Shown here one piece after another: positions 1-56,537 of a stretch of 64,000 bases of DNA (positions within the stretch are counted from its first letter, which is position 1; every line of letters starts with the position of its first letter). A program made the translations under genes and the position numbers. The notes under the pieces were generated by a model, which saw only the letters and a list, made by a program, of their open reading frames with translations, had not been told where the DNA came from and did no database searches. The stretch is taken from positions 127,100,001-127,164,000 of the forward strand of contig NC_042999.1 of NCBI RefSeq assembly GCF_006345805.1, written 5' to 3'. The DNA is from Octopus sinensis (Eukaryota).

Positions 1-329
1 AAGAGCATTGTGACCAGCGATGAGTAGCAGCATCTGATAGCCTGGTCGGTCACGGTGATAACAAACCATTAGTACCAAGTGTTAAGGTATGAGCAGAATT
101 TAGGTTAGTTAAAATATGTTTGTTGCATACTTCAAAACTGCTAAAAGGCAAATACACTGCGGTTACCATGGAGATAGTAAAAGATGTGAAAACACCCAGT
201 AAATTGTCATCCTTTTATAGTTTTAATTTTGCACATGCGCATTGTTTGTTATTGATTTTGTCAACTACACAGTGCAGTTGGGCACTGTCTGTGAGTAAAA
301 CAGCACCATGATACAATTCACTCTGCCAG

Positions 330-1015
330 AAATTTGGAAATGACATGCTGTACTGCTTGGCATTTACACTAGAAACTCCAATACAAACGTTTCAAAGTGC
401 CGAGTGTCAATCTCAGAACATGTACCACAAGGGATAAAAATCAAACAGCCAGTCAATATCATAGTGTTTGGAATGATGGTGACATCTTCTTACATGGCCT
501 CACACTCAACATGGAAGCCTACATCAAGTGCCTGGAGGAGGCAGTACTGCTCTTCATCAAGAGGATAGCTACTGGACAACCCTATGTCTAACAACAGGAC
601 TCTACACCATGCTGCACAAGCAGGAGAACCCAGTCATGGCTGTCAGACAATTTCTGTGACTACACCACCCCTGACATCTGGCCACCTGACTCCACAGACT
701 GCAACCCCCTTGATTATTATGTGTGGGGCACAGTTGAGTGAGAGACCAACAAAACTCTTAGTAACACCAAAGATGAACTGAAGGCAAGGATTATGGCAGC
801 ATTCACCAACTCAAAAAAGGGGACCATCCAGAAGAATTGCAGGAGATTCCAAAGTCATCTGGAGGTCGTGTTTGAAGCCAATGGCAATTTTATTGAATAA
901 ATTTACTCTTTAGTATTTCAAGATAATTTTATGTAATTTTGGTAAATATATCTGAGATGTCATTGTTATTTTCCTTTTTGCATAAATTTAGACGACAGTT
1001 TTTTACTCCACCATG
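330..1015 (+). mobile_element. Decayed maT/DD37D-type Tc1/mariner transposon, 3' part
   Basis: Broken frames read YV*QQDSTP...WLSDNFCDYTTPDIWPPDSTDCNPLDYYVWGTVE (QQD...WPPxSPDxNPLD motif). It ends in a TIR-like segment ...ctccaccatg followed by TA in a microsatellite. Confidence 0.75.
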
Positions 1016-1550
<535 letters not shown>

Positions 1551-2337
1551 GAGGCATGTTTTAGTTTTAGTTTCCATCTACAAAATCTGTTCACAAGGCT
1601 TTGGTAGACTTAGGGCTGTAGTAGAAGACATGCAGTGGAACTGAACCTGAAATCACTAGGTTGGAAAGTGCAAAAAACATTCAGTGATAATAATAACATG
1701 ATGATAGGGAGAGAATTCTATTCCATCACATGAACATTTCTCAATGCTGCTATTAGTAACTATAATAAAACTAAAACCATTCCATTCAGTCCCTCTGGCA
1801 TGAAGAGATACCACAGAAATCTCTTGTTTCTCATTTAACTAGAAATAGAATGAATAAAACAATATTAAAAGGGAGAGAGAATGGACTGATGTCAGAGTCA
1901 AACAAACATGACTAAAGGTTAGACTTTGTACAATACCAAGAAAGGGTCCTGGCTCAAGGGAATATATGAAATGACTATGTCTTTGAGTGAATTATAGAAA
2001 TTCTGCATCATTGACCTTCCCTTTCTTTGTGTTGACTTTACTGTTGTGAGTGTGTATATGTGTTCTGAAGAAGCGAAAGAATTATGTACACACAGCTAAT
2101 TAGTGTTGTTGTAAATGTAAGAAAGAAACCACTTGATTTCAGTCATAAATTGAAACTTGAAAACTTAGAAATACTAATATAACTAACTGGCACTCCATCA
2201 GTTACGATGACAAGGGTTCCAGCTGATCCAATCAACAGAAAAGCCTGCTCGTGAAATTAATGTGCATATTTTGGAAAAAAAAAATCTTTGTGGCATTAGG
2301 AAATATGTAGAACATTGTGATATCAGTGAGTGAAATA

Positions 2338-2660
2338 AGCACTTTATTGGTTATGATGATGAGGTTTCCAGTTGATCTAGTCAACAGAACAGCCTCTCAT
2401 GAAATGAACGTGCAAGTGGCAGACCACTTCACAGACATTTGTACCCTTAACGTAGTTCTCAGGGAGATTCAGTATGACACAGAGTGTGACATGGCTGGCC
2501 CTTTGAAATACAGGTACCACTCATTTTTGCCAGCTGAGTGGACTGGAGAAACGTGAAAATAAAGTGTCTTACTCAAGGACATAGCGCATCACTGAGAATT
2601 GAACTCATGACCTTAGGATCATGAGCTGAATACCCTAACTACTAAGCCACGTGCCTTCAC
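2338..2660 (-). mobile_element. tRNA-derived SINE, family A
   Basis: Reverse complement starts aaggcacgtggcttagtagttaggg...gagttcaattc (A/B boxes), then gtccttgagtaagacacttt. Similar copies at 44713-45033(-) and 51437-51706(-); tail fragment at 2188-2266. Confidence 0.8.
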
Positions 2661-2999
2661 ATATATCAAGTGGAGATTTAAATGGAAAGCTCAGAACAGA
2701 AGTTAGTGAGAAGGCATGAGAAAGAAAGGATGGATGGTACAGACTGACAGAATGAGTGAAAGACAGATACATAGACAGAGAGACAGAGACACAGAAAAAG
2801 AAGGAGAGAGGGAGAGAGAGAGAGAGAGTGAAAGAGAGAAAGTAGAGAAAAAGTGGTAGAGAATAGGAGAAATTTAACAAAATTTTTTATTACTAGAAAG
2901 TTGAATACTGCGAAATGCATGGTACTGTAAGACCTCAAATAGCTCTGATCTAAAACTCTCACATCAAGAATTTCTATAATAATGGTTTTCCTTAATATT

Positions 3000-3216
3000 A
3001 GTTTCAAATTTTTGGCACAAGGCCAGCAATTTGGGGGGAAGGAATAAGTCGACTACACCAACCCCCAGAACTCAACCGGTATTTATTTTATTAACCCTGA
3101 AAAAATGAAGGAAAAGTCACCCTTGGTGGAATTTGAACTCAGAACACAAAGATGGACGAAATGCTGCTAAGTATTTTGCCTGGCATGCTAACAATTCATG
3201 CCAGCTTGCCACTTTA
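3000..3216 (-). mobile_element. tRNA-derived SINE, family C (Nin-domain-like core)
   Basis: Matches 43055-43287 and 14730-14940 (gaatttgaactcagaac, aaagtcaac/ttcatc core). Confidence 0.75.
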
Positions 3217-3244
3217 ATGGTTTTCTCAAATACTAATAATAGCA

Positions 3245-3430
3245 AAATCATTAGCATACCAGGCAAAATGCTTAGCAGTATTTCATCTGTCTTTGCATTC
3301 TGAGTTCAAATTCCTCCAAGGTTGACTTTGCCTTTCATCATTTCAGAGTCAATAAAACAAGTACCAACTGAGCACATTGGGGTCGATGTAACCAACGAAA
3401 TTGCTGGCCTTGTGCCAAAACTTGAAAGCT
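3245..3430 (+). mobile_element. SINE family C copy, inverted relative to 3000-3216
   Basis: ttctgagttcaaattcc...gactttgcctttcatc...gtaccaact...ggggtcgatgta. Confidence 0.75.
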
Positions 3431-3873
3431 ACATTATTGTCCAACCAAAGCTACTATCAAATTAGAGCAATCTCCACTGATTTGTCAATCCACCAACTAA
3501 AGATACCATTGTCATTATCATTGATCAATATCCATTTTTTTGTGTTTGCATGGGTCAGAGGAAATTCACCGTGGCAGGTTTTCTGTAATACCAGATGCCT
3601 TCTCCTGTTGCTTCACCTGTTTCTGAGCAATGTAACATTTCTCCATGGCCAGACATATTTTTGTAGGAGATTGTAAATAAGGGAACTGCTTGTATGTAGG
3701 AGACACTTGTTTACAATAATTGCCTACTATGAAGACAAGGGGACACAAACACAAACACTTCAGCCTCCACATATATATGTATATATATATACAGTAATAC
3801 ACACACACACATGCACACACACACACATGCACACACACACACATACACACACACACACATGCATACACACAGT

Positions 3874-4100
3874 GGAGGCACATGGCTCAGTGGTTAGAGT
3901 GTTGGACACATGATCATAAGATTGTGGTTTCAATTCCTGGACCAGGTGATACATTGTGTTCTTGAGCAAGACATTTCATTTCATGTTGCTTCAGTCCACT
4001 CAGCTGTAATGGAATGGTATCCCATCCAGATAGGGAATATATATGCCATGGATGCCAGGAAACTAGCCCTTATGAATTGGGATGACTCAAGAAGGTAACT
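3874..4100 (+). mobile_element. tRNA-derived SINE, family A
   Basis: ggaggcacatggctcagtggttagag head; ttgtgttcttgagcaagacatttc; cagtccactcagctg. Confidence 0.75.
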
Positions 4101-4679
4101 TTACGTATCTTTTTGCACACACATGCACTCACACACACACACACACACATGCAGACACACGCACACACACACATACCTATGCACACACACGTATGCACAT
4201 GCACATACCACACACACACATGTATAAATATGGCAGGCTTCTCTCAGTTTCTGCCTACCAAATCCGCTCACATGGCTTTAGTTGGCCTGGAGCTATGATA
4301 GAAGACACCTGCTGAAGGTGCCATGATGTGGAATAGAACCCCAAAATCACAAGAATAGGAAGTAACTTTTTAACAATGATTCGTCAATCCATCAACCAAA
4401 GATGCCAGATATAAGCAAAATATTGGAAGTTAGGCTATACTCAGAGACACACAAAAAAAAAATACAGAAGAATGTTCAACTCAAAAGGAGGTGCTCCAGT
4501 ATGGCCTTAGCTATGGTGGCTAAAACAAATTAAAAAAGTGAAGAATTCTATATGGTGCTGAAGTTCAGTGAAGTTGGTGTTAAAAGTGATGAATGGTGTT
4601 TGAGAATGAACAAAAGAGGTGAAGTAAGAAACTGTTTAGTAATTCTGAAAAATTGTTTTAACACTAAAGATACTCAGTG

Positions 4680-4776
4680 TTTCTCTCTCTTTCTCTTTCT
4701 CTTTCTCTTTCTCTCTCTTTCTTTCTCTTTCTCTCTCTCTCTCTCTCTCTCAATCCCTCACACACACACACACACA

Positions 4777-4814
<38 letters not shown>

Positions 4815-5110
4815 TACACATATACACAAATCTACTCACGAATATGTACAGCTCAGACTCTCAATATGAGTGTTCTAAGGATAATGTTCATTTGAAAATA
4901 CCACTGCCGCTGCCGCTGCCGCCACCACCACCACCACTACAAGAACCGCCACCACCGCCATAGGCACCCTCCCCCACAGGCACCACTGCCACTATCAATA
5001 CCACTACCACCACCACCACCACCACCACTACCACAGGCACTGCCACCACTACCACCACACTGCCACCACCACTACCACCACCACAGGCACCATCATCATC
5101 ACCAGCATTG
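4680..5110. repeat. (TC)n, (CA)n and (CCA/CCG)n simple repeats
   Basis: Directly visible; the source of the Gly/Val-rich ORF 4888-5175. Confidence 0.9.
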
Positions 5111-5311
5111 CCAACTATATGATATATCACTATTGAAAAATCTAATATTATTACTTCTGCTTGACTTTCTTCCATTTCTTGTCAAACTACCAATCACACG
5201 TTGATATTTTGTCAATGCCAATGTTAATTTTTGTCATCATTAATGTTAGAGAAAAATTATTCCTATTACGGGTAAGGGGCCAGAAATTTGATGGGAAGAG
5301 TAATAGTTTAA

Positions 5312-5539
5312 ACCGTTTAGAATTTAATCTGACCATATCTGGCCAAAATATTCTACCTATTTTATGTTCAAACTGACCAGATCCAGACTTTCACACCTAT
5401 CATATAATGCCATATTAAAAATAAGTAATCACATCATAGAAATCTTGAAGCTATGAAATAATTAATTCAAAACATTATTAATTCAAACAAAGTGACTTAA
5501 TAAGCATTATATTTGACAGATTATCTGTATGTTAAAGGG
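5312..5539. mobile_element. piggyBac-like MITE inserted in a SINE
   Basis: TTAA at 5308-5311 and 5540-5543; ends ccgtttagaatt.../...tatgttaaaggg resemble CCCTTTAGCA...TGCTAAAGGG TIRs. Confidence 0.6.
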
Positions 5540-5600
5540 TTAAATTAAACCCCAGTATGTGACTGGTGCTTTATTTTATTGATCTCACAGGGATAAAAGT

Positions 5601-5903
5601 GAAGGCACATGGCCTAGTGGTTAGAGGGGTGGATTTACGGTCGAGGAATTGTAGGTTTGAATCTCAGACAGGGTGTTTGTATGTGTTTATGAGTGAAATA
5701 CCTAAGCTCCATGCAGTTTTGGCAGAAGGTAATGGCAAACTTCTGCTGACTCTTTCGACACAACTTTCTCTCACTCTTTTCTCCTAAATCTAGCAGCTCA
5801 CCTGTGACAGAATGGTGTCCCATCGAGGTGGGGAACCTAAATGCCAATGAAACCAGGAAACCAACTCTTATGAGTCAGGCATGGCTTGAGAAGGAACAAA
5901 CAA
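5601..5903 (+). mobile_element. tRNA-derived SINE (family A-related variant)
   Basis: Near-colinear with 39317-39618 (ggcacatggcctagtggttagag...gcagaaggtaatgg...gaaggaacaaa). Confidence 0.8.
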
Positions 5904-6041
5904 CACAGGGGAAAAAGGTAAAGTTGGCCCTGGCAGGATCTGAATTCAGAATGAAAAGAGCTGAATAAATAGCAAGAGGTATTTTGTTCAATCCCCTAAC
6001 AATTCTGTAAACCCACTGCCCTGATAAAATTTAAGGATAAT

Positions 6042-6454
6042 CATGTGTGTATAAATATAAACAAACTTACATTTGTTTTTATTAGAAGCATTGAAATGTG
6101 TATTGTATGATACAAACAAGAATATGATATTTTTCAAACGCATTATTGCTGTACCCTTACAAGGTGAAAGAAGTTGTCAACAAACAGCCATGGGACTTGA
6201 ACCCACATCCCCCAAGACTCTGGCTGAATGCTTTACCATTAAGCTAAACTGCTCACTGACAATTTCATCCACCGATTTAGATGCTAAATAGCTTATTGAA
6301 CAACCATGTGTGAATAAATATAAACAAACTTATATTTGTTATATATATTAGAAGTATTGAAATGTATATGGAAATGCACTCAGCCAGTGTCTTAGGGATG
6401 TGGGTTCAAATCCCATGGCTGTTTGTTGACAACTTTTTCTGCCTTGTAAGGGTA
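6042..6454 (-). mobile_element. Non-autonomous element carrying a tRNA-Thr-like sequence, with direct and inverted duplications
   Basis: Direct repeat 6042-6105/6305-6368 (period about 263); inverted arms 6152-6231/6376-6454; tRNA A/B boxes on the minus strand at about 6183-6255; homologous to 41041-41320. Confidence 0.7.
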
Positions 6455-7928
6455 ATTTACCCATTATTTCTGCTGTTTTAAGGATAATATCCGGGTATAA
6501 ATGGTCTTAAGGTATTTTAATATCATTTTGTTTGTTTACTTGATACCCTAATGTCATGAAGAAGCAAAGTATTGTGTTACATATCTGGAAAACATTGTTG
6601 TCTATAATGGCGGTATTGTTGTCATTGTTGTTCTTTAATTCCAGGTCAAGCATACAAGCAGTGAACATCCTGTCCTTTTAAGTTTACACTATCTTATGGT
6701 TCCTTTCCTTATTCATGATAACACGATGTGATTTGAAAGAGCTTCGACTGTTCTACTGATATTTGTAGTATGTTGAGTGACTGCATAGAGGTGGCCTTGG
6801 CTCATTGGATATTGGGCTTCTTTATAGACTCACTACACCAGAGGTAAAACAAATAGGAAAGTAAGGGCAGTTGCTTTTGGTACAGTTTCCTCAGAGGCAG
6901 CTATCCTATGCACAAGTGTAACCTCTCATCCCTACTAATTAAAATACGAACCTTCTAGAGCAGGCATTGGTACACTTTTTCAAGAAATGGGCCACATGAG
7001 ACTCGGTTCATCATCAGGCGGCCACACTACTAAAAAATTTCAAGTTAATTTTTCTTTGGTATGCTGTTCAGAAAGTCCCTTGGTCGATAGTTTGCTTATG
7101 GCTGTTGTAGAGTATCTCTGCCTTTCAGGTACCGAGAATCTTTGCTATGTGACTGCAGGACATAGAGATAATCTTGCTGGTTTACTGCATAGAAACTCTC
7201 TCCCTATGACACATCCTATAATGTAGTTTGAAGAGGGAACCCACTTTTTGCACTGAGAAGAAAGACTAAGGGCACATTTGAAGTAAAGTGGCTGGGAAAT
7301 GGATTCATATCTACATATTTCCATGTTTTGCTTAAAGAAGTTAACACATTTCTGTAGCATTGCCTTTCAAGTTTGAGTTCGAATCACAATAACAAGCTTA
7401 GCTGTTATATCACCACTACAACCACTACTATCACACATTATATCCATCATCCTACCAAACACCACTAACATTATTATTATCATCATTGCTGATACCCTTA
7501 TCATGAGCACCATCATCATTATCATCATCATCATTGTTGTGATTCTTATCATAATGAAACTAAAACCAGAGACTTTAAATAGAAGATCTGTGTTATACTT
7601 TCTACCCAACTTCATAGATGACATTGCAATCATGAAATCATGAATGTATGTACAATATTACACTGTTTCACATATGTAAAGTACTTTACCACTTTCTGAA
7701 CAGAAACCAAATGAAACTAGTATTTCATTTGACATCCATGCACTGATGACTCATATGCAATCTTCCTTTTCCGCATATCTTTCTCTGTATACTCAAGTTA
7801 TTTTATGTAGTCATCATCATCATCATCGTTTAGTGTCCGTTTTCCATGCTAGCATGTAGTTTCAGTAAATAGTAAATAGCAAAATCAATTTAAAACAACA
7901 ACTAAAAATAGTATGTTTTTTTACTAAA

Positions 7929-8312
7929 AGGTGCAGGTATGGCTGAGTGGTTAAGAAGCTTGTTTCTGGACAATGTGACCATGGGTTCAGTTCCACTGCA
8001 TGGCACCTTAGGCAAATGCCTTCTGATTAAAACTTTGTGAGTGGATTTGATAAATGGAAACTGAAAGAAGCCTATTGTGTGTGTGTGTGTATGTGTGTGT
8101 CTTTGTGTTTATGTTTGTTGTCTTCTCACCACCACTTGACAACCAGTGTTGGTTTGTTTACATCCCTATAACTTAGGCAGTTTTGCAAAAGAGACTGATA
8201 AAATAAGTATTAGGCTTAAAAATAAGTACTGGAGTCAATTTATTTGACTAAAACCCTTCAAGGAAGTGCCCCAGCATGGCCACAGTCTAGTGACTGAAAC
8301 AAGGAAAAGAGA
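7929..8312 (+). mobile_element. tRNA-derived CORE-like SINE, family B
   Basis: ggtgcaggtatggctgagtggttaag head; cactgcatggcaccttaggcaa core; internal (TG)n; ccagcatggccacagtc...gactgaaacaag tail; same family as 32776-33180. Confidence 0.8.
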
Positions 8313-8589
8313 AATGTTAACATTGATTTCTTTTGTTTAGACACAAAGTTGATTCTTGTCAGGAAATGTAAGGGACTGAATACAGTTAAGTATATTACTT
8401 ATTTTATGTTTGATAAAAAGAAAAAAGAAGAAAAAGAAAAAAGAAGAAAAAGAACAAATGCAAGACAAAATTAACCCTTGCAGGATTTGAACTCAGGAAA
8501 CAGAGGGACAAGTAAAAATACTATTGGACTATTCACAGCATTTAATACATCAACTCACTGCATTTGTTGTCAGCTCAGAAGTTAGTATG

Positions 8590-8883
8590 GCTCAGATGGA
8601 AGTCATCATCAACATCAAGGCCGAGTTGGTAGCCAAGTTCAAGGAGGCGATCAATGACCTTCCCTGAGACAATATAAGGAATGCATGTACCAGATTCTAA
8701 AGCCATCTTGAGGCCATGGTGGAAGCTGAGGGCAGCTACTATGAGTAAACTGTTATCTCCTAGCCATAAGCTAGTGGATATTTTTTCATCTCTTAAAATA
8801 CTTCTTTTTTTATATTTGGGATGTGATATTGTGCTTTTATTTCTTTCTATGCAAACTGTCAAATTAAATCTGAACAACCTGTA
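8590..8883 (+). mobile_element. maT/DD37D-type transposon, C-terminal remnant and right end
   Basis: Reads KAELVAKFKEAINDLP*DNIRNACTRF*SHLEAMVEAEGSYYE*, similar to the C-terminus at 770-900; ends ...caacctg-TA. Confidence 0.55.
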
Positions 8884-10589
8884 TTTTATGGATGACTAGA
8901 TAAAAAGGTAGTGTCAAGCCAGGGCAGGATTTGAAATCAGAAAAAATTCATCAAAATTTATTATATAATTCTGTGATTTTGTTAATTGTCATGGAGTCAT
9001 TGAGAAAAAAAGAAAGCTTTTTTTACAAAGAGAAATGGTGTGCATTTAGACACAGATCACAACTGATATTAGAAATTTTTGTTTAACTTGTATTTATTTC
9101 ATCTGAAAAGAGAGAAAATTTCTAGGTATTCAACTCAGTGACTGCTGCTCAAATGTGTGTGTGTGAATGCACACATGTGTATGCACATATGACTTTATAA
9201 ATTTGCTGTGTGATTAAAAGCCTGGACTCTGCACTGTAAATCAATAAATATACAAGTTAAAACTTGTATATTTATTGATGTAATACATGCATTCAGTGTG
9301 TGCGAATGTGTGTATTATGAAACCTGACACTAAACAAAGAACCTAACTTGGTGATACACTGTTTTAACAAGTGGATAAATCTATACCTTATAAACACATC
9401 ATACATTCACTTTCACACATATACAAACAGCTTCTACTCCATGCGGCTGTCACTTAAAAATGCATATTGTTTTAACCCAGCTCTCACCTCCTCGTGTCTT
9501 GGGCTACCACACCTCCTCCTCCTCCTCCACCACCACCACCATTCTTCTCCCCTCCACTCTCTCTGTAACAATCTGTTTTGGCTCTTTGCTTTCAGATTGT
9601 CAACTTATTGCTATCTTTGAATTGATAATTTAATCGCTTCATTTGACATTTTGTTTTCCTCACATCATCCCTTCTCCGCTTAAAGAGAACTTCCTGCAGT
9701 CATTTTCCAGAGATACGTGCATGCATGAAGCTTAGGGCATGTGTAAACCTAATGAAAGAAGCCTTTTCTTAATCCATCTTTCGTCATCATCGCCAAGTCA
9801 CCAACCGCCCCCTCTGCTATTATCCACACAACATAAACGAATAAATAATATATAAATGGTAGCTGTTAGCCATATTAAACTTTTGGAGTTTATCTTTGTT
9901 GTTATTTTTTAACAATTAGATCTGGCCAAGCAGATTTACAATCAAAGATATTCTAATCATGACCATCCTATTTTATTTATAGATATGAGTGAGTTTATCT
10001 AAAACTACATTATGAAATGTGTCCATCTATTTTAAAGTTGGAAATTGTGATTTGAGGAATAGAAAATTTGACTGCTGTTTTCAGTAGATTGAGCTACTGT
10101 ATAAAGACTGGCTCACTGGTTCATTTGTTATCATTGTTAAGCATTTTTAGAGAAAATATGTTGGGAAATGAAATATTGTTTAATTTCCCAATGGTGAAGT
10201 AACAATTATCAAGTAAGTAACATTTTGACTTCGCAGCTGACATGATTATTCTCAATTGTATTATTGTTGATAGTGTTCTGTGCCTGGAATAAGACTTTGG
10301 AATTGCTTCTTTGACTGAGGCACTCATTTACGACTAACACATGAAGTCATGACATGGAGATACAAAATATACACACACTCACACACAAATACATACTTAT
10401 ATACATACATACATGCATACGTACATACATACATACATACATACATGTCACACATATGATTAGCAGCTGTCCATAAATGTCATTGAGGTACTACCTCTCT
10501 ATGCAATAATATTACATTGTTGAAAAACAATATGCAATGACATTAAAAAAAAAAGAATACATATATAGTGTCCCCCTGTTATTGAATAT

Positions 10590-10870
10590 GTACACAGACA
10601 TCAACACAAGGAATACTGGTGGAGCATTCCCATCAAAACATCTGTGAATTGTAAACAAAACAGCCCAGATATTATTGTCTGGGATAGACAAGAAAAAGTA
10701 TGTACCATCATAGAGGTCAGCTTTCCTTCTGATGTGAATGTCTCATTGGTAATCAAAGAGAGATAACTGCTTTAAAAACTTCAGCTTCTTTATCCAAATT
10801 ATAAATTCACATTAATGCCAATAATTGGTGCTGTTGGTTTTGTGAGTAAAATGCTTCAGTGACAATATGG
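10590..10870 (+). mobile_element. RLE-type (R4/Dong-like) non-LTR retrotransposon, endonuclease remnant
   Basis: Reads EYWWSIPIKTSVNCKQNSPDIIVWDRQEKVCTIIEVSFPSDVNVS (PD...E restriction-like motif). Confidence 0.65.
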
Positions 10871-13800
10871 ATAAGCTAGTTGTCCTAAAATATCACTTCA
10901 CAAACCCTTTCGATCTTATTGACATAATCCAGAAACAAGCCAAGGCAAGATATCCAGTGCCAGGAATGTGGGAGCACCATGTTCTCAAGTACAAGCAAAA
11001 GATTCCCAAAATGTTCAGTGCCATTCCCCGCATATCTGGTTTTATATCAGAGTCACCTTCTCTTGGAGACATGCTTTAACAAAAGCTGAGCACTGCTTCA
11101 CTCCTAGTGGTCTTCCAGCATGCTAGACACCAGCCAGAATTTCTGTGACCCCATGCTATTGTTAGAATGTCGTTTAGCCTATACTAAGTTCATCTGACCT
11201 TTTGACAGGTCTCGTTTTTAGTCCTACTGGGTTTCTAGCAACCCTCCTCACCAAGCAAGCCTAGTGGGATGCCGGTTTAGTTACTGACGACCTGACCATG
11301 TGACAGGTTGTACTAGATTCCATATTGCCAGAAGCACTCATGAGAGACCTCACACGTGACCTGACTATACATACATACATACATACATACATACATACAT
11401 ACATACATACATACATACATACATGCATACATCATTCTCTATATCTGACTTAAATGTAGATGTACATAGAGAAAGCCACAAAACTGTTGTACTTTTCTTG
11501 TGAAAACTACTCATGACAATGAGAACTATAAAAGTGTATCAGTAGTAGATAAAAAAAATACAGCTAAGTAGTACTAAAGTGCATTAGTAGTAGATGTAAA
11601 GTGTCCAGCAGCAGTGGTGGAATCACTAAATCATGATTTTTGTCTTTGCATGGCATCAGTAGCAAGTATCTGCTATCAACCACATGCTTAGATGAATTTA
11701 GCCTTTATTGATAAACATTGACTAAATAATCACCAGAGTTGCAAACAGTTGGTGGACTGGATAAAAATTTGTCATTAACAACAGGAGCAGTATTGTTTCA
11801 GAATAGGGTTCTGTGTATCTTACTTGACATGGATATATTGTAGAAAGCAGAGAACTGCAGTTTTTGTCTCAAGAAAGCATCTCATATTGACATATAATGC
11901 AAAAAAGCATAGAAGTGTATCTGCAGCAGATAAAAAGTGCCCAGCAGTAGTGATGGAATTACTAAATCATGATTTCTGTATCTTTGCACATAGTCTTCTT
12001 TCAATTAACATCTACCAAAGGCTTTGGTTGGTCCAAGGCTATTATAGAAGACACTTGCCCAAGGTGCCATACAGTGAGACTACCCAAGACCATGTGCTTG
12101 GGAAGCAAACTCCTCTTTAAACACAGCCAGGCCTGCACCTATGTGTATATTTATATATATCAAAAAATTACTATTTAGAATTAGATAGTTGACAGTTAAC
12201 CAATGCTTAGACCTCCCAGTCGAGCATTAAGCTTAATATTGTCATCTGATTTTCTTTTGGTATTAAACGCATTTGAATAATTTACAGTGTACTTCTGAGA
12301 GCAGACTAAACCAGGAGATCCAGTTAGACTCTTTACTATAAATTACATAATTTTTACACTAGTGTATATTAGTATATTGTGTGGTAATTATTAAATGATT
12401 ACACAGTCACCTTAGAATGTTAGATCTTCAGAAGAAAATAGTAACTTAATCCATTGTTAATTACCAACCCCAGTAATGAAGCTGCAAGAACAAATTCCTT
12501 AAGGTAGCTGTAACCATATTGCATTAAACCTGGGGCAGGTATGCATTTGTATCAAACCTTGTTTTCTTGTGTCTCTGTCCTTCATCATGTCATATATGAT
12601 TCTAATTTTGATCAAAGGTTTTCTTGGTTTATCTTTGTTAGGATAACTTTCATTACATCTTATAAGATTACATCAAAACAATCATCTTTTCTCTGCATAG
12701 CTCAATATTTTCATCGCCCAGTGGATTTCTCAACACCTCTACAATAAAACCTTTTTTAATACAAGCTATTGAGTGAGCCTCTACAAATCACTTGATTGGT
12801 TAGAAAGAGCAGTGGAATCTCTTTCAAATTTCACTTTTCCCCTCACTTATCTGTATCCTTCATATTATTCATATTGTACCCACTCCCTCAGGCCCTGCAG
12901 TAATCATATCACTTCCAGTCTTTCTATATTGATCTCACTAGGATCAGAGAGAAGGCCTGCAAAAGTCATGTGTGCTGCCCTTTATGCCACACCAGTTGAA
13001 TAAAAAGGAAAGGGTTTGATCTAATAATGTACTTGTAAAAAAGAAAGAATTGCCACAGTTGGAACATCTTTGATCATAGATCTGCTCATTCAGAGTTTGC
13101 CTTGAACTAAACACCATGAACACTCTTGGGGGTTAGCACATTTTAAGCAGAGAACATATTTAACTCATTCCTTTTCTTTTGATGCAGGTCTTATGTGATC
13201 ACTAATCTGGATTCACTCCTAAATAATATAAAATTTCTTCCTTTACATGTGACATATATAATCTGACTGACTTTATACACAGAGAAATCCTACAAAACCT
13301 GTTAAACATCAAATGAATGGAATTAAGAATGCATCTAAACCAAATAATCAGCTGCTTAAACAAGCGTAGAAACTGTCAAATGTGTTTCAGTAGCTGGTTT
13401 ATTACAAAGGATAATGAATACAAAAATATTTGAAGTGGTTTTTGTTTGGTCTAAAAGTATTAAATCATCATTTATGTCCATATGTTTCATACCTAGATAA
13501 ACCAATAAAAGTTTATTTTTAGATACTTACTCTGTGTTTAGAATTATTTTCTCAATATTTGCAATCAAACTAATTCATCATCCTCATTACCATAATCACT
13601 GCCAACACCATCCTCCTCATCATCATTTAACATCCAGCTTTGGTGTTGTTACGGGCAACATCATTTGACAAGAGTTGGAGAGTTGCATTATACACCATAG
13701 CTGGATGCTCTTTAAGACCAACATTTTACAGAGTTCATAGGGTGTATTTTCCATGGCAATGGTACTAGTGATGGTAACTTCCACAGTTAAAGCCTTGAAG

Positions 13801-13931
13801 TGGCCTCTAAAACTCAAACAAACAGAAGAGAGATTGGGTAATGAACCTCAATTCAAGGGGTGAGGAAGGGCAGTAAATTTACTATATCATTGAAGTAACC
13901 ATAAAACTTTATGTGTGTGTTTGTGTGTGTA

Positions 13932-13964
<33 letters not shown>

Positions 13965-14267
13965 ATGTGTGCGCATATGTGTGTGTGTGCATGTTTGTGT
14001 CTGTGTGTGTCTGTGTGTGTGTGTGTTTCTCTTTGTTTTGGTATTGCATTCTGGTTGTGAGTGTCACCATCATGCAAGCAGTGTCTTTCATTTCCAGTCT
14101 TCCATGAAAACATGTCTGGCCAAGAGGAAATATTATTTTTTTCAGAGACAGAGGAAGGTTGGTTACAAGAAGGGTGTCTGACCAAAGAAAATCTGCTTCG
14201 AGAATTCTATCTGAAGACTGCAAACAATAAAAAGTGGATGTTAAAATGATGACAACTAATTCTTTTT

Positions 14268-40815: not shown

Positions 40816-41040
40816 TTGTATATATATATATTGGCGTTAGGAAGGGCATCCAGCCGTAGAAACACTGCCAAATCTGACTGCACCTGATGAAGCCTTCTGG
40901 CTTCACAGACCCCAGTTAAACCGTCCAACCCATGCTAGCATGGAAAACGGACGCTAAATGATGATGATGATGATGATGATATATATATATATGGAGAGAG
41001 AGAGTGGGGGAGGAGGGAGAGAGAGAAGAGAAGAAAGGAA

Positions 41041-41320
41041 TATTTCAAATGTATTATAGCCATGAAAACAGCAGAAAGATTGGGTATTTTACTCTTATAT
41101 GACAAACACTTGTCAGCCGACAGCCATGGGACTTGAATCTGCAACCCTCAGATACTGGCTGAGTACTCTACCATTAAGCTAAACTGCCTGCTGACAACTT
41201 TTTTCCGTCTTTTTGCTGTTTCCATGGCTATAATGCATTTGAAATAATACTTTCTTGTCTGTATATTACAAAACACATTCAATGCTTCCAAAAACATAAA
41301 AACAAAATTTGTTTACAATA
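41041..41320 (-). mobile_element. tRNA-Thr(AGT)-like element with inverted arms, same family as 6042-6454
   Basis: Arms 41041-41073/41214-41246; minus-strand cloverleaf with anticodon arm ctcag-ccAGTat-ctgag at about 41118-41189. Confidence 0.7.
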
Positions 41321-55606: not shown

Positions 55607-55724
55607 ATATATATATATATATACAATTAAGGGCTCCTAAATAAAGATGCCGAGTGCTGGGAACACAAAAAGGGGATGAATTTATCGAGAGTGAAAATCA
55701 AAAACATTTACCGATAACTTTAAC

Positions 55725-55800
55725 AACTCGTACCGCGGTTTCTGCTTCTTTCTAGCAAAACACAGAATATGTTTGCTAAGGCTAGCTTCATCAGTGAGTC
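55725..55800 (-). ncRNA. Type I hammerhead ribozyme (inverted copy)
   Basis: Reverse complement gactca-CTGATGA...GAAAC-cgcg-GTA-cgagtt, with palindromic stem III accgcggt. Confidence 0.72.
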
Positions 55801-56207
55801 GCCTGAATTTAATTGAGGTCTGCAGCGATGTGGGGCTATATGTTAAACCCGACTACTAGCAGATCTTAACTTTTCAAATCTCTGCGCAGACGCAAAATTT
55901 ACACGGGCATGCCGGGAAGAATTTTACGAATAAATTCATCATGTAGTATGCGAATATATTTTTCTATATGAATATTATTTTTGTCTCATGACTAATTCGT
56001 CTTTTGTGCTGGGCACCTGGTAGTAAATAATATTACTACCCTTCTTGTTTATATTCGCATACTACATGATGAATTTATTCGTAAAATTCTTCCCGGCATG
56101 CCCGTGTAAATTTTGCGTCTGCGCAGAGATTTGAAAAGTTAAGATCTGCTAGTAGTCGGGTTTAACATATAGCCCCACATCGCTGCAGACCTCGATTAAA
56201 TTCAGGC

Positions 56208-56283
56208 GACTCGCTGATGAAGCTAGCCTTAGCAAACATATTCTGTGTTTTGCTAGAAAGAAGCAGAAACCACGGTACGAGTT
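56208..56283 (+). ncRNA. Type I hammerhead ribozyme
   Basis: gactcg-CTGATGA(56214)-agct[tagcaaa/tttgcta hairpin]agca-GAAAC(56266)-cacg-GTA-cgagtt. Confidence 0.75.
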
Positions 56284-56537
56284 GTTAAAGTTATCGGTAA
56301 ATGTTTTTGATTTTCACTCTCGATAAATTCATCCCCTTTTTGTGTTCCCAGCACTCGGCATCTTTATTTAGGAGCCCTTAATTGTATAACCACATGAATA
56401 ATATTTTTCTATATGAATAATATTTTTGTCTCATGACTAATTCGTCTTTTGTGCTGGGCACCTGGTAGTAAATAATATTACTACCCTTCTTGTTTATATT
56501 CGTATATATATATATATATTATATATATATATATATG

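What the first reader, a model, noticed from the sequence alone, without database searches (positions are those of the whole stretch)
6042..6454. Retrozyme-like architecture built around a tRNA-Thr mimic instead of a hammerhead
Seen in sequence: the same layout as the 55.6-kb element (263-bp monomer, about 63-bp direct repeat, inverted partial copy), but I found no hammerhead core. Instead, a tRNA-like cloverleaf with an extended acceptor helix (ttgtcagtgagcagt/ggctgtttgttgacaa) lies mid-unit. Ordinary SINEs have the tRNA at the 5' end plus a LINE-derived tail, and neither is seen here. Inference: a non-autonomous family mobilised by Penelope-type machinery, in which the tRNA supplies a Pol III promoter and/or RNase P/Z cut sites that replace ribozyme self-cleavage. 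I am not aware of this having been described.
Basis: partly seen in the sequence, partly recalled or inferred. Interest (0 to 1): 0.75.

Follow-up and report, generated by a model that had tools for sequence, protein, structure and literature searches.

The report
tRNA-bearing repeat copied by Penelope machinery
A short non-coding repeat that carries a tRNA look-alike and no hammerhead ribozyme lies scattered through this animal genome in the layout typical of Penelope-like retrotransposons, so it was likely copied by their enzymes, which would make it a SINE-like passenger of that class; the copies do not support cutting at the tRNA.

Summary
The feature is real, with corrections. The insertion spans 6042-6476 between 12-bp direct repeats, likely a target-site duplication. 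It belongs to an old dispersed family (median 84% identity to consensus) with a ~289-nt unit; this copy lacks 27 nt. The tRNA part has intact A/B boxes but reads Ser and is closest to host tRNA-Lys, not Thr. No hammerhead was found; positive controls were detected. Of 103 loci, 62 carry an inverted arm, all with 3' ends pointing outward, and 50 cross a head-to-tail junction. Outer ends fall at two internal sites about 60 nt apart, usually one of each (32 AB, 5 AA, 2 BB; P about 5e-5). This is the Penelope 'tail' signature, so mobilisation by Penelope-like enzymes is likely; no partner element was identified. RNase P/Z processing is not supported: 53 of 113 arms span both cut sites. A Pol III promoter role is plausible but must pass a T5 run. 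Nearest precedents: retrozymes, Schistosoma Pol III hammerhead repeats, Helenus/Cassandra. This scan noted a similar element in a coral genome (unchecked here). Verdict: new variant of a known kind.

The parts
6030..6041 (.). left copy of a 12-bp direct repeat, likely target-site duplication
   Evidence: (D5); only two occurrences in the window
6042..6305 (-). full unit c1-c289 read in tRNA sense, ending at end site B, with a 27-nt deletion (c155-181) at 6152/6151
6044..6102 (-). 'tail' between end sites A (c226-230) and B (c287-c2); predicted hairpin, AC-rich end
6103..6118 (-). end site A region (U-rich motif followed by an AC-rich stretch), the usual outer end of inverted arms in other copies
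6164..6181 (-). 3' strand of the extended acceptor helix, including the T5 run of the consensus (interrupted by a C in this copy)
6182..6253 (-). tRNA-like domain; A box 6246-6236, B box 6203-6193, anticodon position AGA 6221-6219, degenerate anticodon arm
6254..6273 (-). 5' strand of the extended acceptor helix
6306..6369 (-). 5'-truncated upstream unit c230-c289 (partial tandem, pseudo-LTR-like)
6368..6476 (+). inverted 5'-truncated arm c68-c178, 3' end facing outward; its next bases match the target repeat
6477..6488 (.). right copy of the 12-bp direct repeat, likely target-site duplication
   Evidence: (D5)

Best explanation
This is one copy of an old, non-coding ~289-nt repeat family with an internal tRNA-derived module and no hammerhead, whose copies have the layout of Penelope-like element (PLE) insertions and were likely copied in trans by a PLE reverse transcriptase/GIY-YIG endonuclease. 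Shown: the layout of the copies (partial tandem, outward-facing inverted arm, two alternative 3' ends, microsatellite bias, occasional 9-14-bp duplications). Inferred: partial-tandem copies give an uncut RNA longer than one unit. The likelier source is Pol III firing from the A/B boxes of the upstream unit and reading through the T5 run (about 50%); Pol II read-through is the alternative (about 35%). Inferred from published PLE biochemistry: the enzyme nicks both strands of AT-rich or (TA)n/(CA)n DNA and starts reverse transcription inside the RNA at sites A and B, typically one per strand. The second cDNA becomes the inverted arm; the cDNAs often stop at the 3' foot of the folded tRNA and are then joined. 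The tRNA would serve as promoter and folded module, not as a cleavage signal.
For: 103 distinct loci: 62 with an inverted arm, all 3'-outward, none inward; 50 cross the c289-c1 junction; end pairs 32 AB, 5 AA, 2 BB against 8.2 BB expected, P about 5e-5. The 21 loci picked only by a 25-nt tRNA motif show the same: 11 inverted, 12 crossing. Inverted arms duplicate sequence of the sense arm (L005, L024, L096, L112), which single-template twin priming on a monomer cannot give. Microsatellite within 30 nt in 34 of 71 loci against 12% of control pairs. Duplications of 10 nt or more in 6 of 103 against 0.45 expected. These are the hallmarks listed by Craig et al. 2021 (PMC8557442, passages). Frangieh et al. 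2024 (PMC11167929, main text parts 1-2) show internal initiation at two adjacent AC-rich sites that bound the tail, on both strands, without need for hammerhead cleavage. The genome holds RT+GIY-YIG elements with frames of about 780 aa, a Hydra-type family and a young hammerhead family with the same layout. A/B boxes are canonical while the anticodon arm has decayed. Three outer ends lie at c139-141, the T5 run, one arm running c42 to the next c140.
Against: No autonomous partner found: nothing better than E 0.76 in 50 GIY-YIG loci, and only a weak 49-of-72-nt match to the 3' UTR of a Hydra-type family, at a site that is not that family's end. The tail is about 60 nt against the 30-40 nt published. 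41 of 103 loci have no inverted arm and most have no visible duplication. The T5 run argues against efficient Pol III transcription of the template. No covariation support for the long helix. Loci were top hits of query-based searches, and end positions come from BLAST, a few nt imprecise. No direct RNA evidence.
Confidence: 0.75

Rival explanations
1. One reading: PLE-mobilised, but RNase P and RNase Z cut out the tRNA and so replace hammerhead cleavage, making unit-length or circular RNA.
For: tRNA fold with a full acceptor stem; 18 of 36 inner 5' ends in the set selected on the 3' half lie at c111-135; four 5' ends at c53-56.
Against: 53 of 113 arms span both sites unbroken; 14 of 28 listed ends near the tRNA are upstream of the RNase Z site and spread over 25 nt, as expected of stalling; leader and trailer are predicted to pair for 16 bp or more, which should hinder both enzymes (recalled knowledge); no arm exceeds 1.6 units, unlike the hammerhead family; hammerhead cleavage itself is dispensable in vitro.
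Confidence: 0.08
2. A LINE-mobilised SINE with a long 5' leader that inserts into microsatellites and suffers frequent inversion and partial duplication.
For: tRNA-derived A/B boxes; 9-14-bp duplications in some copies; simple repeats beside many 3' ends.
Against: Only 10 of 103 sense arms start at c37-58, A-rich tail in 2 of 103, two alternative internal 3' ends, 60% inverted arms that duplicate the sense arm, read-through of the unit junction in 50 of 103.
Confidence: 0.08
3. The unit is the orphaned pseudo-LTR of an extinct autonomous PLE that had captured a tRNA gene or SINE head, so these are truncated copies of that element and not a separate non-autonomous family.
For: Truncated PLE copies give the same layout; weak similarity of c216-287 to a Hydra-type 3' UTR, above 300 shuffles and 412 unrelated windows for the best copies.
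Against: Where the sequence upstream of c1 could be assigned, it is the unit's own 3' end, an inverted arm or microsatellite; no RT fragment by tblastn with one Neptune-type protein in the 86 family loci then held.
Confidence: 0.06
4. A DNA-level foldback, MITE or Helitron-type element.
For: Inverted repeats at the ends of many copies.
Against: Arm lengths and inner ends vary freely, 5' truncation is polar, and there is no fixed terminal repeat or fixed-length duplication.
Confidence: 0.03

Closest known systems
Metazoan non-LTR retrozymes (Cervera and de la Pena 2020, PMC7229834; Li, Clavereau and Pollet 2026, 10.64898/2026.07.22.740005), including the 444-nt hammerhead family at window 55.6 kb
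   Same: Short non-coding AT-rich unit, head-to-tail junctions, longer-than-4-bp duplications, proposed PLE dependence; same outward inverted arms and alternative ends as the 55.6-kb family.
   Different: No type I hammerhead, no arrays of two full units or more, internal tRNA module; the 2026 preprint has no occurrence of 'tRNA' or 'promoter'.
Non-autonomous PLEs such as Chlamys-dependent MRC1, and hammerhead-less Naiads (Craig et al. 2021, PMC8557442)
   Same: Pseudo-LTRs, inverted 5'-truncated arm, one-sided tail, microsatellite bias, no need for a hammerhead.
   Different: Carries a tRNA-derived A/B-box module; no clear 3' homology to an autonomous family found; tail about 60 nt.
Schistosoma SINE-like hammerhead repeats (as reviewed in PMC6765202; primary paper not held)
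   Same: Pol III promoter inside a tandem unit, the upstream unit transcribing the next.
   Different: Those carry an active hammerhead; this family has none.
TRIMp3: Cassandra, Helenus, Ajax (Kojima 2024, PMC10886601)
   Same: Small-RNA-derived Pol III promoter placed inside the terminal repeat of a non-autonomous retroelement; tRNA-like part with isotype disagreement in Helenus.
   Different: Those have two LTRs, PBS/PPT and 4-5-bp duplications and depend on LTR retrotransposons; 'Penelope' does not occur in that paper.
Ordinary tRNA-derived SINEs
   Same: tRNA-derived A and B boxes, short, non-coding, dispersed.
   Different: tRNA is 53 nt inside the unit, no fixed 5' start, no A-rich tail, two internal 3' ends, frequent duplicated inverted arms.

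Membership tests
PLE-type (non-autonomous) insertion | Partial tandem forming a pseudo-LTR | tested here: met
   50 of 103 loci cross the unit junction
PLE-type (non-autonomous) insertion | Inverted 5'-truncated copy at the 5' side, 3' end outward | tested here: met
   62 of 103 loci, none inward
PLE-type (non-autonomous) insertion | Tail between two initiation sites, present at one end only | tested here: met
   32 AB, 5 AA, 2 BB among 62 two-armed loci (23 have an end elsewhere); P about 5e-5; about 60 nt rather than 30-40
PLE-type (non-autonomous) insertion | Bias for AT-rich or microsatellite targets | tested here: met
   34 of 71 loci against 12% control
PLE-type (non-autonomous) insertion | 3' homology to an autonomous PLE of the same genome | tested here: inconclusive
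   none in 50 GIY-YIG loci; weak 49/72-nt match inside a Hydra-type 3' UTR, not at its end
PLE-type (non-autonomous) insertion | Mobilisation by a PLE protein shown experimentally | not testable with these tools
   needs an in vitro or cell assay
Non-LTR retrozyme | Type I hammerhead in each unit | tested here: not met
   0 in the consensus (up to 2 core mismatches, both strands, across the junction) and 0 of 71 copies; detected in the 55.6-kb family and in PLE locus L132, missed in 3 other PLE loci tried; no Rfam ribozyme at E up to 1 in 9 loci
Non-LTR retrozyme | Tandem arrays of two or more full units | tested here: not met
   longest arm 457 nt, 1.6 units, in 103 loci
Non-LTR retrozyme | 150-450-nt non-coding unit under 50% GC | tested here: met
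   289 nt, 37.7% GC
Non-LTR retrozyme | Abundant circular RNA | not testable with these tools
   only assembled contigs of guessed RNA runs were available
tRNA-derived SINE | A and B boxes from a tRNA | tested here: met
tRNA-derived SINE | Fixed 5' start at the tRNA head | tested here: not met
   10 of 103 sense arms start at c37-58
tRNA-derived SINE | Single fixed 3' end with A-rich or simple-repeat tail | tested here: not met
   two end sites, 62 A and 65 B of 165 outer ends; A-rich tail in 2 of 103; microsatellites lie on both sides
tRNA-derived SINE | 3' tail shared with a LINE | not tested
   no LINE library was searched
TRIMp3 (Helenus, Cassandra) | Two complete LTRs around an internal part, 4-5-bp duplication | tested here: not met
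   repeats are partial, variable and abut directly; duplications 9-14 bp
MITE / foldback DNA transposon | Fixed terminal inverted repeats and fixed-length duplication | tested here: not met
   inverted arms of about 30-370 nt with variable ends
Functional tRNA-Thr gene | Thr anticodon in register and Thr-like body | tested here: not met
   anticodon AGA/GGA, mismatch in the anticodon stem, body closest to Lys(TTT)

The most novel reading that the evidence does not exclude
Penelope-like elements have their own SINE equivalent: a ribozyme-free, Pol III-driven passenger that keeps a tRNA promoter inside its pseudo-LTR so that each partial tandem can transcribe itself. It would complete the series SINE/LINE and TRIMp3/LTR, and with the coral case noted by this scan it would be a recurring class that repeat libraries file as SINE or unknown.
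Probability: 0.45. Interest if true: 0.7.

Novelty: new variant of a known kind. Interest (0 to 1): 0.52.

Why it matters
It suggests that PLE enzymes can mobilise a non-coding RNA in trans with no hammerhead and little or no pseudo-LTR homology. That bears on the open question of what the hammerhead does for PLEs and retrozymes. A 289-nt unit with two mapped end sites, beside a hammerhead family in the same genome, is a minimal substrate for the existing in vitro PLE assay. It also gives an architectural test (outward arms, one-sided tail) for re-sorting 'unclassified SINEs'. The family is old and apparently inactive, so host impact is probably small.

Tried and rejected
Partner search: family profile against 50 GIY-YIG loci, best E 0.76; six short family motifs absent from the Craig 2021 supplement, where line breaks could hide a match; published octopus Naiad 3' ends unlike the unit by eye. 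Hydra-type match: best copies score 50.5 against a maximum of 46.5 in 412 unrelated windows, but the median copy is reached by 13 of 412 and the family ends about 1.1 kb further on; kept as a lead only. A 5-of-7 hammerhead-core look-alike at c179 followed by GAAA: six such 2-mismatch look-alikes occur on the two strands and no helix I forms, so chance. The first hammerhead script missed its positive control and was replaced. The structure was out of register and is void; RNAalifold gave no useful covariation. RNA: no RNA holder listed; pieces of the family lie in contigs of 4 of 4 guessed RNA runs, uninformative about ends, strand or level. Empty site: not seen in 3 runs, whose contigs cover the right border. 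tRNA part against phage records: no match. Pfam PF26215 not in the library. Ferbeyre 1998 not held.

Full report
Setting. The window is G000:C3:127100001-127164000 in a 2.72-Gb animal genome. I infer an octopus: a short motif from a published Octopus Hydra consensus retrieves Hydra-type elements here. The only Rfam hit over threshold in the window is the tRNA-like stretch at 6182-6253, minus strand, 37.5 bits. The open frames of 90 aa or more in 1-14000 look non-genic or low-complexity by eye. 'c' numbers below are positions in the 289-nt family unit, tRNA sense.

Observation. The direct repeat (87% over 68 nt, spacing 263), the inverted copy and the extended acceptor helix are present. Three corrections follow. 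The unit is about 289 nt, and this copy has lost c155-181, which its inverted arm retains. The insertion spans 6042-6476 between exact 12-bp repeats found nowhere else in the window. The anticodon position reads AGA here and GGA in the consensus; among host tRNAs of six isotypes the body is closest to Lys(TTT), 47 of 72, against 43 for Thr. Read in tRNA sense the locus is: duplication, inverted arm c178 to c68, partial unit c230-289, full unit, duplication.

Family. The first search gave 779 candidates, 40 scored; an exact 25-nt motif occurs 26 times, 0 in the reversed control. From these I infer several hundred to about a thousand tRNA-bearing copies. Median identity of the best arm to the consensus is 84% (71 loci), so the family is old. 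In O. vulgaris a PLE expansion is placed at Jukes-Cantor distance 0.2 (PMC13282606, passages), roughly the same depth. I mapped 103 distinct loci: 71 of 86, 16 of 30, and 16 of 19; the rest were duplicates. All were top hits of query-based searches except the 21 picked by the motif.

Architecture. 62 of 103 loci have an inverted arm; in all 62 the 3' ends point outward, none inward. 50 cross the head-to-tail junction with 12 nt or more on each side. Of 165 outer ends 62 fall in c200-250 (site A; 43 in c219-242), 65 in c270-c13 (site B; 60 in c278-c6) and 38 elsewhere. Among the 62 two-armed loci there are 32 AB, 5 AA and 2 BB pairs (23 have an end elsewhere), against 8.2 BB by shuffling, P about 5e-5; one search selected for B ends, which would favour BB. 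Copies bounded by duplications place A at about c226-230 and B at c284-c2, each a few bases behind a similar U-rich motif. Duplications of 10 nt or more occur in 6 of 103 (0.45 expected) and of 8 or more in 12 (3.9 expected). Microsatellites flank 34 of 71 loci against 12% of control pairs. Craig et al. 2021 (passages; supplement searches and parts 24 and 52) list these features for PLEs, including a tail at one end only and families without hammerheads. Frangieh et al. 2024 (parts 1-2 of 4) show that a PLE protein cuts and extends both strands, starts inside the RNA at two adjacent AC-rich sites that bound the tail, and does not need hammerhead cleavage.

Machinery in the genome. GIY-YIG gave 5029 candidates, 150 scored, several in open frames of about 780 aa; L038 carries RVT_1 and GIY-YIG. 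A Hydra-type family with inverted arms and two adjacent ends is present. The 55.6-kb element is a young (about 98%) 444-nt family with a type I hammerhead, long arrays, inverted arms and (TA)n targets. Its end aligns with site A of the tRNA family at 17 of 19 nt (E 0.058), which is weak but at the expected place. No partner was established: best E 0.76 in 50 GIY-YIG loci, and a 49-of-72-nt colinear match of c216-287 inside the Hydra-type 3' UTR, above 300 shuffles and 412 unrelated windows for the best copies only, and about 1.1 kb from that family's end.

No ribozyme. A type I hammerhead search finds the 55.6-kb motif and one PLE motif (it missed 3 other PLE loci tried) but nothing in the consensus, even with two core mismatches, and nothing in 71 copies. 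Rfam lists no ribozyme at E up to 1 in 9 loci.

What the tRNA does. A and B boxes are canonical and the anticodon arm has decayed, which fits a promoter but also a conserved elbow fold. Against simple Pol III transcription, the only T4-or-longer run of the sense strand is at c135-139 (T4 or more in 65 of 85 pieces covering it, of 148 aligned), so the template needs read-through. For Pol III activity, 3 outer ends lie at c139-141, one arm running c42 to the next c140 and another c38 to c139; this is a small number noticed after the fact. Against RNase P/Z processing, 53 of 113 arms cross c42-138 unbroken. 5' ends do cluster at c111-135 (18 of 36 in the set chosen on the 3' half), but 14 of the 28 listed lie at c114-122, upstream of the RNase Z site, and 6 at c124-128; this fits stalling at the folded tRNA. 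Against a circle, no arm exceeds 457 nt. The long helix has modest folding support (z -1.75, -2.24) and no covariation support.

Comparison with known systems. It works like a non-autonomous PLE and meets four of the six listed features, with homology inconclusive and the assay untestable here. It is not a retrozyme (no hammerhead, no arrays), an ordinary SINE, a MITE or a TRIM. A Pol III promoter inside such a unit is known from Schistosoma hammerhead repeats (review passages, PMC6765202; primary paper not held) and from Cassandra, Helenus and Ajax (passages, PMC10886601). Retrozymes as non-autonomous PLE derivatives: PMC7229834 (passages) and 10.64898/2026.07.22.740005 (part 1 of 5 and passages; supplements closed). 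Short non-autonomous Penelope elements are mentioned without detail in butterflies (PMC6685494, passages). Nine literature searches listed no paper that, in the listings and passages I saw, describes a tRNA-bearing, hammerhead-free PLE passenger. Subscription journals, Repbase, Dfam and the O. vulgaris repeat library were not seen, and the family may sit there as a SINE. This scan's note e1-9538450 reports a 299-nt element of the same kind in a coral; a sequence look-up found no look-alike of this DNA, and I did not check that note.

Verdict. Real, and a new variant of a known kind. PLE-type mobilisation 0.75 as a separate non-autonomous family; Pol III promoter role about even; RNase P/Z replacement of the ribozyme about 0.08. 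Interest 0.52.

Noticed in passing
window 55620-56506: Young (about 98% identical) 444-nt family with a type I hammerhead (core at about 56214 on the + strand), long tandem arrays, outward inverted arms, ends at unit positions 327, 362 and 438-444, and (TA)n targets: a typical retrozyme. Its end resembles the end sites of the tRNA family (17 of 19 nt).
   Followed up: partly
window 41031-41317: Second, more diverged (75-78%) copy of the tRNA family, two arms joined at the extended acceptor helix, beside a (TA)n run.
   Followed up: partly
L222:1-2796 and L217-L281: Hydra-type PLE family (about 900 candidates, 89-96% identical) with a 3' UTR of about 1.2 kb, two ends 10 nt apart, (TA)n targets and a hammerhead-like motif near the end whose core often reads CCGA instead of CTGA.
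   Followed up: partly
L031-L060, L131-L150: Several RT+GIY-YIG families with a CxxC linker (Neptune-like, label recalled), some with open frames of about 780 aa; L132 has a type I hammerhead; L133-L139 carry a tandemly duplicated 3' UTR block.
   Followed up: partly
window 5600-5905: Very high-copy repeat just upstream (summed contig depth 1e5-1e6) that starts with A/B-box-like motifs; looks like an ordinary SINE.
   Followed up: no
L167 (G000:C12:22959503-22962574): Cluster of about seven tRNA-Cys-like genes or pseudogenes within 3 kb.
   Followed up: no
L082, L104, L115: Three family copies end at the T5 run, one spanning c42 to the next unit's c140, like a Pol III transcript that passed one terminator and stopped at the second.
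   Followed up: partly
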